Assembly: GCF_009914755.1 (NCBI RefSeq)
Contig: NC_060927.1
From: the human T2T-CHM13v2.0 reference genome, Homo sapiens
Direction: 5' to 3' (one strand)
DNA: 64,000 nt
In this document: positions 39,591 through 60,454 of the stretch, one piece after another
How the letters are laid out: each line of letters begins with the position of its first letter
Position numbering within the stretch: the first letter of the stretch is position 1
Position numbers and translations under genes: made by a program
Notes under the pieces: model-generated
Databases searched by the model: none
Told to the model about the DNA's origin: nothing
Seen by the model: only the letters and a program-made list of their open reading frames with translations

Positions 39591-41004
39591 CCCAAGATTT
39601 TTCAAGCTGACTGTATAAATATATAGCATGCCACTGTTTTTGCAATTGCACTATAACAATTTTCTAATGTTGGGTACTTAAAATTTATACCTTTTATTGC
39701 TTTAAAGAAACAATGAAAATTCTTCCAGTGAAATCTTTGGTTCCATATACACTATTTTCCTAATGACAAATGCCAGTGATTAAAATTGTATGGTCCAACA
39801 GTTATGTGCATAATTTATGCATCAATATTTTTTGCAAAAATCTAAAAGCAGCCAAGTCGAGCCAGCATAGACTAGAAACTGGAAGTAATAGAATACTAAA
39901 TTCAAATTCTTTTATGATTTCCAGCAGATCTCAGCACCGTTGTGTATATTGTGGGAAGTAAGCCTAATAATCCTTTTTTAACCTTAGAGTTATGTAATAT
40001 TTTGAAAGTCTAAAAGACGATTCTTATGAACTTAGATTTGACAAAATCTTTAAGAAGTAACTTTTAGAAAGTGTTTTAAGGTAAAACCTTCTACCTAGAA
40101 ATGTGCTTTGAATATATATAATGGACTCTCAGTAGAGGTTTGATGACCCATTAATCCAGATCTGGAAACAATCCTGTGTTTTCTATTTTTGTGATATTTC
40201 ACCTAAGGAAATGTTCACCTGAATCCTTTGATAATTACAGAAATTATCTGGAAGCAGAATAAATGACATATTGGAGAATTAAGGTCAAATGGTCTTTGGT
40301 GACCTACTGTACTTTTGCAAATACATCAACCATTTATATCTACCATTGCCCTAATAGAATTTCCTGGCATGCATGTTTTCAATATTAGTATGTCTGCAAA
40401 TGCTTTAATACATGGAAATTATTGATGGCAGATATTAAGCTATGGTAACACATTGAAAACAATTTGAACATTTTACAGTTTAACATTTTCCAAGCCAAAA
40501 ATTAAAAATCTGACATCTATATATGTACCTGAAAATTTGACTTTTCTAGAAAAGTCTAGTTCCTAAGTTGCAAACCAGTACTCCACCATTCCTCCTGCAC
40601 TATTGAAAGAACAACTCTTGTAAAATAATATCCATATTTAGGAAAGACTAAACAATAAAGACTTATTTCCATTTTTTTTCTCATTTTTGAAATAAACTGT
40701 TATCAAATTCTCTCCAGATTATTTCTGTTACAAAACCACCACCCATTATGCCTCCTCCTTAAAAACATTGTGCACAATGCTGGAAATGGGTTTTCCCTAG
40801 CCAGCACTCCAACTGGGTACTGAAGGTTGGGGCTGCACACATAGCCAGTTTCAAATAACTGACCCCCTATTGTCCCTGCTGCTATTGTTCTCAACCTCCT
40901 TTCTTCCTGTATGAATGCTCCATAATTGTAGGTTGAGTACAAAATTCTAAAATCTGTTTTTTCTCATTGGTAATATTGGATTATTTAAAAAAAAAAAAAA
41001 ACTA

Positions 41005-41230
41005 TTATGGACATAGTGGTATGAAGAACTGTGGAATCAGATCTGGTTGGAATCCCAGATTCCCCACTCACTGTCATGGTAAGCAGCTATTTCAACTCAT
41101 TGATCCTTTATTTCTTTATCTGTGATTTTGGAGATATTAATGATACATATGTCATAAGGTTGTGAATGAAGCTTGAGTAGGACAATGCATGTAAAGAGCT
41201 TAGTAAGTTGCTTGACTCAAGATAAATTGC
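41005..41230 (+). mobile_element. MIR relic
   Basis: TGGAATCAGATCTGGTTGGAATCCCAG...AATGCATGTAAAGAGCTTAG. Confidence 0.65.
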
Positions 41231-41669
41231 TTGAAACCTAAAGCACAGAGTAGTGTATTTTCTGCTACAGTGTTACAAAGATGTTTCTTGACAAAGTCAG
41301 AATTGGAATGCAAACATATCCATAACACCAAATCTGATGTTCAAAATTCATATACCCTATCCAGTACAACCTTCTCAGGATCTCCTTGCTGGCTCTCAAT
41401 GCTTGCTTACTGAGTTTTAGGAATCAAATTCTGTACAACCTCAAACATTTACTACAGTGTCATTTCTCCTATCTTCCAGGAGCAGAGCTTCATTTCCCCT
41501 TTTACATTTGTGTCCTTTTTAGTCATCACTGCCATCCCAATTTAATTCTGTCTTCTTATCACTTATCTTCTGAAGCTCTTATCAGCTGGGTACACCACCC
41601 TTTATAATCCGTCTTTTAACCATCCTATCTTTATGGGTATCATGAGAGAGCCCAGGATCCTCCTCCATT

Positions 41670-41940
41670 ATAGTGTAGGAGTTAAGAAATGGGCTCTGAA
41701 GCCATACTACTTAAGTCTGAAGTTCTCTGTTTCCACAAATCCCACTTTTTAGCTTGGGGACCTTGAATACATTTTCTGCTTTCAGTTTCTTATCTGTGAA
41801 ATGTAGATTAAAATTATACCTACCTAATTGAGTTGTTGATCAGATTAAATGAATGAATGCATGTTAAGTACTTGCAAATAGCACCTGGAACCTATCAAGC
41901 ACGATATAAATATTATCTGTTGTTATTATTATTATTATTT
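41670..41940 (+). mobile_element. MIR relic
   Basis: GTTAAGAAATGGGCTCTGAAGCCA...TTCAGTTTCTTATCTGTGAAATG...ATTATT tail. Confidence 0.7.
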
Positions 41941-42294
41941 GTTAAAGAATTCCAAACATAGCTAAGTTATCACTTCCAAATTTATCCTTTTGTTCCCTGC
42001 TACCATCCAGTAAACGGATCTTACCTAAATGATGTATTGAATAAAATGTGAAAAGCCTGAAACTGTACGGGGCACAGGGAAACACTCATAAACTGCTAGC
42101 CTCTATAGTAAATAGAGTAGAGAGGAATTAAAATAGATAAACAAATAATGAGCTAGCATTAGAAAGACAGATTTTACAATTTAAGATATTTGAAGTAAAA
42201 CAACTATGAGTGGCATGAAAATCTAAAGTGTATTCAGGTTTGTGTATAGCAAAACCTGAGTGGAGTTGAGGAAATTTAGAAATGAAATTCTTCT

Positions 42295-42650
42295 AAAAAA
42301 GGAGTTTATGTCCTTTGCAGGGGTATTGATGAAGCTGGAAACCATCATCCTCAGAAAAGTAACACAGAAACAGAAAACCAAACACTGCATGTTCTAACTC
42401 ATAAGTGGGGTTGAAAAATGAGAACACATGGACACAGGGAGGGGAACATCACACACGGGGGCCTTTCTGGGGATAGGGGGAAAGGAGAGAGAGAGTGTTA
42501 GGACAAATACCTAATGCATGCAGGACTTAAAACCTAGATGATAGGTTGATGGGTGCAGCAAACCACCATGGCACATGTATACCTATGTAACAAACCTGCA
42601 CGTTCAGCACATGTATCCCAGAACTTAAAATAAAAAATAATTAATTTAAA
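42295..42650 (+). mobile_element. L1PA8-like 3' fragment in left arm
   Basis: GGACAAATACCTAATGCATGC...AAAACCTAGATGATAGGTTGATGGGTGCAGCAAACCACCATGG. Confidence 0.85.
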
Positions 42651-43067
42651 AGAGTTAAAAAAATTAAAAAATACTAAAGTCAGAAAAGATTTACTAGATT
42701 CCTACTATGTGCAAGATACTAAGAGAAAAAAGTAAATAAGATATTCCTACTGCCCTCAAAAAGTTTACACTTTTTGATTCTCAGCCCCTCAGCACTTGAC
42801 CTAATTTGCCCTAGACTTTCTTCCTGAAAGTCCCTTTCTTTGGATTTTGAGACCCTATTCATTCCTAGTTCTGGTTCTGTTTCTAACACTTAATCTTCTT
42901 CTATATCTCTTCCTATATGAATACACTTGTTCACCTTTCCACATCGTGTAAACTTTTTGAGGGCAGTAGGAATATCTTATTTGCTTTTTTTCTCTTAGTA
43001 TCTTGCACATAGTAGGAATCTAGTAAATCTTTTCTGACTTTAGTATTTTTTAATTTTTTTAACTCTT

Positions 43068-43425
43068 AAATTAATTAATTTATTTTTTATTTTAAGTTCT
43101 GGGATACATGTGCTGAACGTGCAGGTTTGTTACATAGGTATACATGTGCCATGGTGGTTTGCTGCACCCATCAACCTATCATCTAGGTTTTAAGTCCTGC
43201 ATGCATTAGGTATTTGTCCTAACACTCTCTCTCTCCTTTCCCCCTATCCCCAGAAAGGCCCCCGTGTGTGATGTTCCCCTCCCTGTGTCCATGTGTTCTC
43301 ATTTTTCAACCCCACTTATGAGTTAGAACATGCAGTGTTTGGTTTTCTGTTTCTGTGTTACTTTTCTGAGGATGATGGTTTCCAGCTTCATCAATACCCC
43401 TGCAAAGGACATAAACTCCTTTTTT
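43068..43425 (-). mobile_element. L1PA8-like 3' fragment in right arm
   Basis: Reverse complement of 42295-42650. Confidence 0.85.
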
Positions 43426-43864
43426 AGAAGAATTTCGTTTCTAAATTTCCTCAACTCCACTCAGGTTTTGCTATACACAAACCTGAATACACTTTAGATT
43501 TTCATGCCACTCATAGTTGTTTTACTTCAAATATCTTAAATTGTAAAATCTGTCTTTCTAATGCTAGCTCATTATTTATCTATTTTAATTCCTCTCTACT
43601 CTATTTACTATACTTACACTAATAATGCCTAACATTTATTGAGTGCCTACAATATTCCAGACAATGTATTCGTTGTTTTACCTGCATTATTTCACTTAAT
43701 ATTTACATAATCCCATGAAATATTGTTATTATGTTTATTTTACAGATAAAGGACTTAAGGCCCTAGGAAGTCAAGTTATTGTCCCAAGGTCTCAGAGCTA
43801 CTGGCTTTGCCAGAATCAGGCTACAAATTCATGTTTCCTTCATCTTTTCTCTATGCCATTTTGA

Positions 43865-44224
<360 letters not shown>

Positions 44225-46030
44225 TCTAGATGGTAATTACTATAGCAATTCTGAGGAATATAATTTTTAATAATATGTCTTAACTTTTCTTTGAAAGTCT
44301 AGTTTCTATCCATTGGTTCTCTAACTGCATTTATTAATGCTTCTCAAAGCACATAGTCTCCTTGTACCTCAGAGAATGTGGCATTTGATAACCAGATTTC
44401 TTGTCTGAGCTGGCTGCAATGGTGTTGGAAATTGGCTCTGCAGCTGGGCTGGACTGCAGTTAGGAAACATGATTGTAGATGGTGAACTGTCACTGCTGGG
44501 ATGTGAACCAGACATGAATGCTAAGCAATAGTGTCCACAGTTTGCAACCCAGGAACTGCCAAATTGACAGCTAGACTAAACTGTAGCAGCATAGGAAAAT
44601 GTGGCTAGTTTCTCCAGTCAGTCAATACAAAGTCTTATATTGTACTATAATGAATACAATCTTACTGTCCCAAAAACTGAGATGCTGTCAATTATGAATC
44701 TCAGTTAGATTCTTAGCAAGTATTTCATGTGTGAACACCCGTATAAGCCTCATAATGGCCCTAACTGTAGTTGGTTTGGATTAGCTTTTACAGTGAACAT
44801 GCAGTTCATTAAGCTTACAGAAACTCCAACAGCAGCTGCACATCTCTCCATGAACTATATAGGTTTTTTGCATTTTATCTAGGACTAGATGAAAGGGATC
44901 CATAAGGCTGTGCTAGAAATAAGTCTTGATTCTCTGAGGGACTTGAATAGATATAGAGTGTGTATGAAATGAATAATATCAGTAATGAGCAAAACTTGAA
45001 AGGAAAATCTAAAGGTTTGGGGGGTTCTGTTTCCTTTTAAGGAAGTTGTGGCAAATTATTGTTTTATAATAATTTTGCTTTGAGAATTTCTTCAGGCTTG
45101 GGATATTCATTTGTTATTTCACTAGACAGAACATCTGCTTACCTTCCTCACCATTCTCTCACATATTTCTTTGTCATTCATTTCCTTCATGCCAGGGACT
45201 TCTGCAAGTTCCCATTATGTTCCAAGCACTGGGGCTGGAAATGAGTTCTTTGATACAAAAAAACAAACGTCTCTGCCCTCAAGAAGCTCATGGTCTAGTG
45301 GGGAAGACAATTGCATAAAAAGAGAATATAGCAACACAGTGGTAAAGATGTGTATATTATATTAAAGGAACCCCAGTGGGTAGCATCTATGCCACCTGAA
45401 AGGGGGTTCAGAAAAGGCTTTTAATAGAAGACACTTGAGTTGAACTTTAAGAGAAGTAGGAATCAGTCCAAAGAAGAAAAATGCCAATGTCTAGACATCC
45501 CCAATATATAGGATTACCACACAGATAGAGATCCCATTATAATTCATATATCAACAATTAAAGAAGCTATTGGGATTTTAGAGTAGATATTTTTATTTGC
45601 AATATATCCAAATATTTTTTCTTAGGACTAGAACATTTTCTCTGTCTGGTAAAATGCCACTGTATCTTTAGATATGAACATGTGCATTGTTTAAGTACAT
45701 GAAGACTTCGTTAAACATAGACACCTCAACTTTATTAGTAGAATCACTGGCTTTAGAGCATCTTTGAAGATCAAAAAGTGAGAATCTAGAGAGGTGAAAT
45801 CAAGAGACTCTGACCAGTGACACACCTTCTCAGATGCTCTGGGGCTTATGGAGGTATGCATGGAAGTTACCAGCATATGTTTTAAAGAAAGTGATTTGAA
45901 TAAAGCATTACATGAGTGTGTTGGGAGGTAGTCATGCTGAGGTCAGAATTAGCCAGATTCTTTCCATGTCATCTGCAATCCTTTCATCTAACTTCCAAAA
46001 GAGTGGTTGCTGGAAAACCTAAAGAAATGT

Positions 46031-49067: not shown

Positions 49068-51676
<2,609 letters not shown>

Positions 51677-56633: not shown

Positions 56634-60454
<3,821 letters not shown>

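What the first reader, a model, noticed from the sequence alone, without database searches (positions are those of the whole stretch)
42104..43612. Near-perfect 1.5-kb quasi-palindrome: 667-bp arms around a 175-bp spacer
Seen: the arms are reverse complements at about 98% identity and extend beyond the L1PA8-like piece into ~190 bp of outer and ~120 bp of inner flank. The L1 bodies look identical and share private deviations from consensus. This is therefore an inverted duplication, not two insertions, and repeat masking would hide it. The spacer and the start of the right arm both read as plus-strand L2, suggesting the right arm is original. Inference: either a recent fold-back/template-switch event or an older one homogenised by arm-to-arm conversion. 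Predicted consequences are recurrent spacer inversion, cruciform fragility, and a ~660-bp near-perfect RNA duplex in the host pre-mRNA (ADAR, Dicer or MDA5 substrate).
Basis: partly seen in the sequence, partly recalled or inferred. Interest (0 to 1): 0.8.

Follow-up and report, generated by a model that had tools for sequence, protein, structure and literature searches.

The report
Young inverted duplication in EGFEM1P intron
A 667-base stretch of human chromosome 3, made of an old L1 fragment plus its unique surroundings, was copied once in reverse orientation 175 bases away; this is a real but ordinary kind of local DNA copying error whose biological effects remain untested.

Summary
Arms 42104-42770 and 42946-43612 (667 nt each) flank a 175-nt spacer. 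They differ by 2 substitutions and 5 small indels.

In the whole T2T genome the full arm occurs only at these two places. Only arm positions 191 to about 560 match other L1 3' ends, at 86-91%. Both arms share the same L1 truncation point, 23 private L1 differences in 334 columns with none between the arms, and unique flanks. So this is one L1 insertion followed much later by one inverted duplication.

Without gene conversion the arm divergence (0.30%, CI 0.04-1.09%) dates the event to about 1.5-3 Myr ago. An older event homogenised by conversion cannot be excluded without ape orthologues, which these tools do not hold.

The inner about 80-95 nt of each arm are an L2 3' end. The claim that L2 runs on into the spacer, making the right arm original, was not confirmed.

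The RNA would fold into a helix of about 660 bp. However, the site is deep intronic and the spacer is long. Published work on other systems therefore argues against strong cruciform fragility and against cytoplasmic sensing by MDA5. This is a new member of a known kind, of modest interest.

The parts
42104..42770 (+). Left arm (667 nt). It consists of unique outer flank 42104-42293, a 5'-truncated L1 3' end in + orientation with its A-rich tail (42294 to about 42663), and an inner flank that includes an L2 3' end in - orientation (about 42680-42773).
   Evidence: arm alignment; L1 part is arm positions 191 to about 560, the rest unique in the genome; L1 comparison; L2 profile hit 42773-42680, E 1.2e-4 over the window.
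42771..42945 (.). Spacer (175 nt), single copy in the genome. It would form the loop of the hairpin.
   Evidence: arm boundaries; the query 42771-43060 matches only itself over positions 1-175; no significant match to 4 de novo L2 profiles on either strand.
42946..43612 (-). Right arm (667 nt), the reverse complement of the left arm. It consists of an L2 3' end in + orientation (about 42946-43037), the L1 tail and L1 3' end in - orientation (about 43053-43421), and unique outer flank 43422-43612.
   Evidence: second and only other full-length match, 98%; outer flank unique apart from the left arm; L2 profile hit 42887-43037, E 6.8e-5.
42283..42283 (+). Substitution between the arms. The left arm has TG where the right arm (43437, read as reverse complement) has CG, so this is a CpG transition.
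42726..42733 (+). A 1-nt length difference in an A-run, with a T/C substitution 7 nt away (right-arm counterpart 42983-42991).
42639..42650 (+). Cluster of three small indels (1, 1 and 3 nt) in the low-complexity A/T-rich L1 tail (right-arm counterpart 43067-43081).
42139..42142 (+). A 4-nt indel, present in the left arm and absent from the right arm, 35 nt from the outer end.

Best explanation
An old, 5'-truncated L1 3' end inserted once beside an L2 3' end. It then accumulated about 7% private changes. Much later, a 667-bp block (L1 piece, 190 bp of unique DNA on one side and about 100 bp on the other) was copied once in inverted orientation 175 bp away. This produced a quasi-palindrome of arm, 175-nt spacer and arm.

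The most likely mechanism is a DNA-synthesis template switch. A nascent 3' end left its template, primed on the complementary strand 175 nt away (across a fork or by fold-back of a resected end), and copied 667 nt. It then returned or was end-joined, with 0-1 nt of visible junction homology. In the four-point template-switch scheme this is pattern 1-4-3-2 or 3-2-1-4, on a much larger scale than the short-range events that paper addresses.

The arms are most simply read as young: about 1.5-3 Myr, most likely after the human-chimpanzee split. The structure is probably a neutral intronic passenger.

Shown: the structure, its uniqueness in the genome, the single L1 origin, the low divergence between arms and the folding potential. 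Inferred: the mechanism, the age (which assumes no conversion) and the neutrality.
For: The arm alignment has 660 matches, 2 substitutions and 5 indels.

In the genome-wide search of the window's own assembly, 40 of 4377 candidates were scored. The full 667 nt occurs only at the two arms. The other 38 scored matches cover only arm positions 191-583, at 86-91%. The flanks and the spacer are unique.

In 334 L1 columns where at least 5 of 6 related copies agree, both arms share 23 private differences and differ from each other at 0. On those figures the duplication took place in roughly the last 2% (CI 0.3-8%) of the L1's residence time.

K is 0.30% (Poisson CI 0.04-1.09%). The probability of 2 or fewer substitutions at a divergence of 1.23% is 0.012. 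The 1.23% figure for human-chimpanzee divergence is recalled, not taken from a call.

The 175-nt spacer lies within the 100-200 nt given for the eukaryotic Okazaki initiation zone (PMC7999016, passages). The spaced-junction logic of fork template switching is described in PMC10766186 (passages). Single inverted repeats are the majority product of four-point template switches in apes (PMC7954356, passages).

The excess of indels over substitutions (5 to 2), with clustered differences, is compatible with error-prone copying at the event. That reading is an inference.
Against: No outgroup or population sequence could be examined, so the derived state, the age and the junction ancestry are untested. 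Arm-to-arm gene conversion would give the same low divergence at any age.

No junction microhomology beyond 0-1 nt is visible (read). That fits end joining as well as, or better than, microhomology-primed switching. Any microhomology used at the inner switch would be hidden inside the arms.

667 nt is far longer than the tens of nucleotides reported for short-range template switches and for fold-back insertions at breaks. The latter are described as mostly about 5-34 bp in the abstract of PMC11724301 (listing only).

Four of the 5 indels lie in A/T-rich or low-complexity runs, where slippage alone could produce them.
Confidence: 0.6

Rival explanations
1. The inverted duplication is old (before the human-chimpanzee split, possibly much older). 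The arms stay nearly identical through recurrent arm-to-arm gene conversion, as in sex-chromosome palindromes but with arms of only 667 bp.
For: The arms contain a 496-bp uninterrupted pairing block and lie only 175 bp apart, so intrachromosomal recombination is mechanistically possible. That such blocks exceed the minimal homology needed for mammalian recombination is recalled knowledge, not tested here. The remaining differences sit mostly toward the arm ends and in indel-prone runs. Low divergence alone cannot separate this reading from a young origin.
Against: This reading needs an extra process. A young origin explains 2 substitutions in 662 sites without one. There is no sign of GC enrichment in the arms (35% GC), although that test has little power. 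Conversion would be expected to erase indels as well, yet 5 persist.
Confidence: 0.3
2. Assembly artefact: a fold-back chimeric read or a mis-join created a second arm that does not exist in the DNA.
For: Nothing in the calls points this way.
Against: The arms are separated by 175 nt of unique spacer and differ at 2 substitutions and 5 indels. A missed-adapter fold-back read would give a perfect palindrome with no spacer; that property of such reads is recalled knowledge. The hub's NCBI repeat mask lists both L1 pieces in the same assembly.
Confidence: 0.03
3. Two independent L1 insertions in opposite orientation, or an L1 twin-priming inversion, or a fold-back/long-TIR transposon.
For: Each arm contains an L1 3' end, and the outer ends of the arms read TATA.
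Against: The homology extends 190 nt and about 100 nt beyond the L1 into DNA that is unique in the genome. Both arms have an identical truncation point and share 23 private differences. Twin priming joins different L1 coordinates and does not copy flanks; that description is recalled knowledge. There is no other genomic copy of the unit, so it is not a transposon family.
Confidence: 0.01

Closest known systems
Template-switch mutations under the four-point model in great-ape genomes (PMC7954356; passages read)
   Same: A reverse-complement copy of nearby sequence is inserted in cis and yields a single inverted repeat. The layout fits pattern 1-4-3-2 or 3-2-1-4, which that paper reports as the majority patterns.
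   Different: That work concerns short-range events, with templates within tens to hundreds of nucleotides. Here 667 nt were copied. The ancestral state needed to call the event is not available to me.
Fork template switching at short interrupted inverted repeats (ODIRA model, PMC10766186; passages read)
   Same: The inverted junction has a spacer of Okazaki-gap size. The model proposes that the leading strand primes on the lagging-strand template.
   Different: ODIRA yields inverted triplications of origin-containing segments of kilobases to megabases, with spacers of 40-80 nt between inverted repeats of about 5 nt. Here there is a plain duplication of 667 bp, a 175-nt spacer, no third copy and no demonstrable short inverted repeat at the junction.
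Fold-back inverted duplications and templated inverted insertions at DNA breaks (PMC3907307 and PMC11724301; abstracts in the listing only)
   Same: A resected 3' end folds back and copies its own strand, giving arms with a short disomic spacer between them.
   Different: The human disease cases are large terminal events with deletions. The yeast break insertions are mostly 5-34 bp. This event is interstitial, 667 bp long and shows no loss visible from one genome.
Long, highly paired predicted dsRNAs of the human genome (dsRNAscan preprint PMC11838218, section 10 read)
   Same: The hairpin is longer than 300 bp and more than 96% paired, and it involves inverted LINE sequence. It therefore falls in the class of 2,018 such predictions out of 5,134,754.
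   Different: 88% of that class are intergenic, whereas this one lies in an intron of a transcribed pseudogene. About 45% of each arm is not L1. I could not see their Table S5, so I do not know whether this locus is listed.
Sex-chromosome palindromes maintained by arm-to-arm gene conversion (recalled knowledge; PMC11168930 seen only in the listing)
   Same: Near-identical inverted arms surround a unique spacer.
   Different: Those arms are kilobases to megabases long and carry genes. Conversion there was shown by cross-species comparison. Here the arms are 667 bp, carry no genes, and conversion is untested.

Membership tests
Local inverted (fold-back / template-switch) duplication | Two adjacent copies of one segment in opposite orientation | tested here: met
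   arms of 667 nt, 175-nt spacer, 660 matches, 2 substitutions, 5 indels.
Local inverted (fold-back / template-switch) duplication | The copies include non-mobile flanking DNA and share one repeat-insertion history | tested here: met
   the flanks are unique to the two arms; 23 shared private L1 differences in 334 columns and 0 between the arms; identical L1 start at arm position 191-192.
Local inverted (fold-back / template-switch) duplication | Derived state: one arm absent from the ancestral or outgroup locus | not testable with these tools
   No primate or other human assemblies are held. Only G000 could be searched.
Local inverted (fold-back / template-switch) duplication | Microhomology at the switch junctions | tested here: inconclusive
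   Reading shows 0-1 nt at the outer and inner junctions under either polarity. Any inner-junction microhomology would be absorbed into the arms.
Two independent L1 insertions / L1 twin priming | Homology confined to L1. Insertions have separate truncation points and target-site duplications; twin priming joins different L1 coordinates. | tested here: not met
   the homology extends 190 nt and about 100 nt beyond L1, and both arms hold the same L1 coordinates.
Fold-back or long-TIR transposable element | Multiple dispersed copies of the whole unit in the genome | tested here: not met
   only this locus holds the full arm; the spacer is single copy.
Palindrome homogenised by arm-to-arm gene conversion | Within-species arm identity exceeds between-species identity of orthologous arms | not testable with these tools
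   No orthologues are available. Internal signals (GC content, distribution of differences) have no power.
Known structured RNA or miRNA hairpin locus | Match to a curated RNA family | tested here: not met
   of 5 Rfam matches at E up to 1 in 41000-45000, none lies in 42104-43612.
L2 3' end (inner ends of the arms) | Significant match to a profile of genomic L2 3' ends | tested here: met
   profile of 70 copies: 42887-43037 (+) at E 6.8e-5 and 42773-42680 (-) at E 1.2e-4 over the window. The profile is my own. The label L2 rests on a recalled motif that gave 428 genomic matches against 0 for the reversed control.
   the gain is only 0.8 bits (model b1) or 0.2 bits (model b2); the cleaner 30-copy model stops inside both arms; the spacer alone gives no significant match in 4 models.

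The most novel reading that the evidence does not exclude
The palindrome predates the human-chimpanzee split and is kept at about 99.7% identity by arm-to-arm gene conversion, with the 175-nt spacer flipping between orientations in the population. That would make it one of the smallest gene-free autosomal palindromes shown to be actively homogenised. It would also be a natural reporter of inverted-repeat recombination and of nuclear hyper-editing in a long intron.
Probability: 0.25. Interest if true: 0.5.

Novelty: new member of a known kind. Interest (0 to 1): 0.3.

Why it matters
Near-perfect inverted repeats of this length are scarce in the human genome. One preprint counts 2,018 predicted duplexes longer than 300 bp and more than 96% paired, and 88% of them are intergenic (PMC11838218, section 10). 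An intronic example with cleanly defined breakpoints therefore has some use.

It records how a 0.7-kb inverted duplication forms. It is also a candidate site for spacer-inversion polymorphism, which short reads and repeat masking would miss. If EGFEM1P is transcribed through it, it is a strong candidate substrate for nuclear ADAR editing.

It is not a new kind of element, and nothing found here suggests a function.

Tried and rejected

2. Rfam over 41000-45000 at E up to 1: nothing in the arms. The only hits are sub-threshold Alu-derived ones and one weak viral-pseudoknot match outside the arms.

3. Deciding which arm is original through L2 continuity.
- The genome BLAST-type search found only one diverged L2 relative, and it starts inside the arm.
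- The first profile, from 30 copies, was contaminated by Alu insertions.
- Cleaned 30-copy profiles disagreed on any extension into the spacer.
- A 70-copy profile gave only 0.2-0.8 bits in favour of the right arm.
- The spacer alone gave no match.
- Result: inconclusive. A curated L2 model (Dfam) was not available and might see more.

4. Outer-junction polarity. The outer 190 nt of the arms and the adjoining flanks hit no repeat that crosses a junction. The MIR/L2-type 3' end on the right starts about 17 nt beyond the arm.

5. A 6-nt inverted repeat brackets the right arm (GTGTAA at 42946-42951 and TTACAC at 43614-43619). I could not derive the observed layout from it under any simple switch geometry, and I treat it as chance.

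6. Literature on this locus. The search 'EGFEM1P' plus 'inverted repeat' returned 1 unrelated paper. The search 'EGFEM1P' alone returned 44 papers, of which 25 were listed; none of the listed titles or abstract starts concerns this structure. Table S5 of the dsRNAscan preprint is not held, so I cannot say whether the locus is already catalogued there.

7. The GAP-Seq palindrome paper was read in outline only. It concerns MCF-7 tumour palindromes and was not pursued.

Full report
**The observation**

The inverted repeat is in the sequence at exactly the stated coordinates. The repeat finder on 41000-45000 returns four collinear inverted blocks of 513, 82, 45 and 41 nt at 98-100%.

A gapped local alignment of the left side against the reverse complement of the right side joins them into one alignment.
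- Left arm: 42104-42770. Right arm: 43612-42946.
- 660 matches and 2 substitutions.
- 5 indel events of 4, 1, 1, 3 and 1 nt, which leave both arms at 667 nt.
- The spacer 42771-42945 is 175 nt.
- Identity is 98.2% counting gap positions and 99.7% at aligned positions.

In the whole 64-kb window, one search lists 6 inverted pairs of 150 nt or more. The other five are repeat-element pairs at 83-94% identity, lying 2.4-9.2 kb apart. Chance is not an issue.

**What the arms are made of**

I searched the window's own assembly (G000, 3.1 Gb) with the left arm. Of 4377 first-look candidates, 40 were scored.
- The full 667 nt match only the two arms.
- The other 38 scored matches cover only arm positions 191-583, at 86-91% identity. 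These are dispersed L1 3' ends.

Separate searches give the same picture.
- The spacer plus inner arm, the right outer flank and the left outer flank each match only themselves and the partner arm.
- A handful of 70-78% hits to old repeats fall outside the arm-only unique parts.

The arm therefore has three parts:
- 190 nt of unique DNA;
- a 5'-truncated L1 3' end with its A-rich tail;
- about 100 nt of further DNA.

I aligned the L1 part of both arms with the six best genomic L1 matches. In 334 columns where at least 5 of the 6 agree, both arms share a differing base at 23 columns. The arms differ from each other at 0 of those columns. All L1 matches begin at arm position 191-192.

This shows one L1 insertion that aged by about 7% and was then duplicated together with its flanks. 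It excludes three alternatives:
- two independent L1 insertions;
- L1 twin priming;
- a multi-copy fold-back element.

Divergence of 9-12% from the nearest copies fits an old primate L1.

**The inner flank and the polarity question**

It found 428 genomic matches, against 0 for the reversed control. I collected 70 of these copies, removed young insertions and built nucleotide profiles.

The 70-copy profile gave these matches over the window:
- Right arm on the + strand: 42887-43037, E 6.8e-5.
- Left arm on the - strand: 42773-42680, E 1.2e-4.
- An unrelated L2 fragment at 45217-45469: E 1e-11.
- A MIR/L2-type 3' end on the - strand at 43630-43666: only weakly, E 0.05-0.08.

My tests do not bear this out.
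- Extending into the spacer adds only 0.8 or 0.2 bits over the left-arm alignment.
- A cleaner 30-copy model stops inside both arms.
- The spacer alone gives no significant match in 4 models.

My recalled L2 consensus also seems to read across 42945/42946. That is recall, not a test. In addition, one crossover between the arms would invert the spacer and move the continuous junction to the other arm. Inner-junction continuity therefore cannot establish polarity by itself. Only the outer junctions in an outgroup can.

**Age**

Two substitutions in 662 aligned sites give K = 0.30%, with a Poisson 95% CI of 0.04-1.09%.
- At recalled rates of 0.5-1.0e-9 per site per year, this is about 3.0 or 1.5 Myr. 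The CIs are 0.4-10.9 and 0.2-5.5 Myr.
- One of the two substitutions is a CpG transition.
- At the recalled human-chimpanzee divergence of 1.23%, the probability of seeing 2 or fewer substitutions is 0.012.
- Relative to the 23/334 private L1 changes, the duplication falls in the last about 2% (CI 0.3-8%) of the L1's residence time.

All of this assumes no arm-to-arm conversion, which I cannot test.

There are 5 indels against 2 substitutions.
- Four of the indels lie in A/T-rich or low-complexity runs.
- One 4-nt indel does not.
- One 1-nt indel lies 7 nt from a substitution.

This may reflect slippage since the event or error-prone copying during it. Either reading is an inference.

**Mechanism**

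The layout is flank, arm, unique spacer, inverted arm, flank, with no third copy anywhere. This is what a template switch with return produces.

Three papers bear on this. I read passages only, except where stated.
- In the four-point scheme used for great-ape genomes, patterns 1-4-3-2 and 3-2-1-4 give single inverted repeats and are the majority classes (PMC7954356).
- A review gives 100-200 nt for the eukaryotic Okazaki initiation zone (PMC7999016). The 175-nt spacer fits that range.

Against a microhomology-primed switch, I see only 0-1 nt of homology at the junctions. Fold-back synthesis from a resected break, finished by end joining, is therefore equally possible. I could not fit a 6-nt inverted repeat bracketing the right arm to any simple geometry, and I regard it as chance.

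**Predicted consequences**

As RNA, 42104-43612 folds at -1206.8 kcal/mol, against -318 to -331 for 5 shuffles.
- 660 of the 693 predicted pairs are arm-to-arm.
- The longest uninterrupted helix is 496 bp.
- As DNA the energy is -796 kcal/mol.

The hub's gene table puts the only EGFEM1P exon in the window at 1219-1341. The hairpin is therefore deep intronic on the sense strand.
- Promiscuous ADAR editing of such a duplex in the nucleus is expected from established knowledge, if the gene is transcribed. No expression data were available here.
- Cytoplasmic MDA5 sensing is unlikely. The dsRNAscan preprint (section 10 read) finds 2,018 predicted human duplexes longer than 300 bp and more than 96% paired, 88% of them intergenic. 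It argues that intronic ones are removed by splicing.
- Cruciform or hairpin fragility is disfavoured. The review passages report that a 52-bp spacer already abolished fork stalling at inverted Alus in eukaryotic cells. They also report that a yeast pair of 6-kb repeats with a 280-bp spacer is stable unless replication is impaired.
- Spacer inversion by arm-to-arm recombination is plausible but unobserved.
- Rfam shows no known RNA family in the arms.

**Comparison and verdict**

This is a real inverted duplication, well defined and unique in the genome. It is a new instance of a known class of rearrangement and of the known, scarce class of long, highly paired inverted repeats.

No paper found by my searches mentions it. 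The supplementary table that might list it could not be read.

The choice between a young origin (my estimate 0.6) and an older origin with conversion (0.3) rests on ape orthologues and human long-read haplotypes, which these tools do not hold. Interest is modest at 0.3. It would rise to about 0.5 if conversion or spacer toggling were shown.

Noticed in passing
window 42946-42951 and 43614-43619: A 6-nt inverted repeat brackets the right arm. GTGTAA forms the first 6 nt of the arm, and TTACAC starts 2 nt beyond its end. No counterpart precedes the left arm. I could not fit it to any simple template-switch geometry.
   Followed up: partly
window 50424-51662 and 57916-59154: Two long repeat bodies in opposite orientation: 1239 nt at 94% complementarity, 6.25 kb apart. 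Further collinear blocks lie at 49907-50423 and 59154-59664. They fall inside stretches the hub lists as masked repeats and are probably two L1 elements of similar age.
   Followed up: no
window 45217-45469 (- strand): The best match in the window to my de novo L2 3'-end profile (E 1e-11 to 3.5e-13). It is an independent L2 fragment and served as a positive control for the profile.
   Followed up: partly
window 43624-43761: A stretch just right of the right arm matches four dispersed genomic places at 70-78%. Its left end matches the shared MIR/L2 3' end on the - strand (43630-43666). It looks like a MIR in minus orientation; that label is recalled. It starts about 12-17 nt beyond the arm boundary.
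   Followed up: partly
window 43929-44223: An Alu-like element gives sub-threshold Rfam hits to Metazoa_SRP, mir-1268 and mir-3135. This is the usual Alu cross-match.
   Followed up: no
window 41843-41940: A piece of the left flank matches one other place on the same chromosome (G000:C3:4071829-4071928) at 75%. It is presumably an old interspersed repeat. By eye and from recall, an L2-like 3' end may lie at about 41975-42050, but my profiles did not report it.
   Followed up: no
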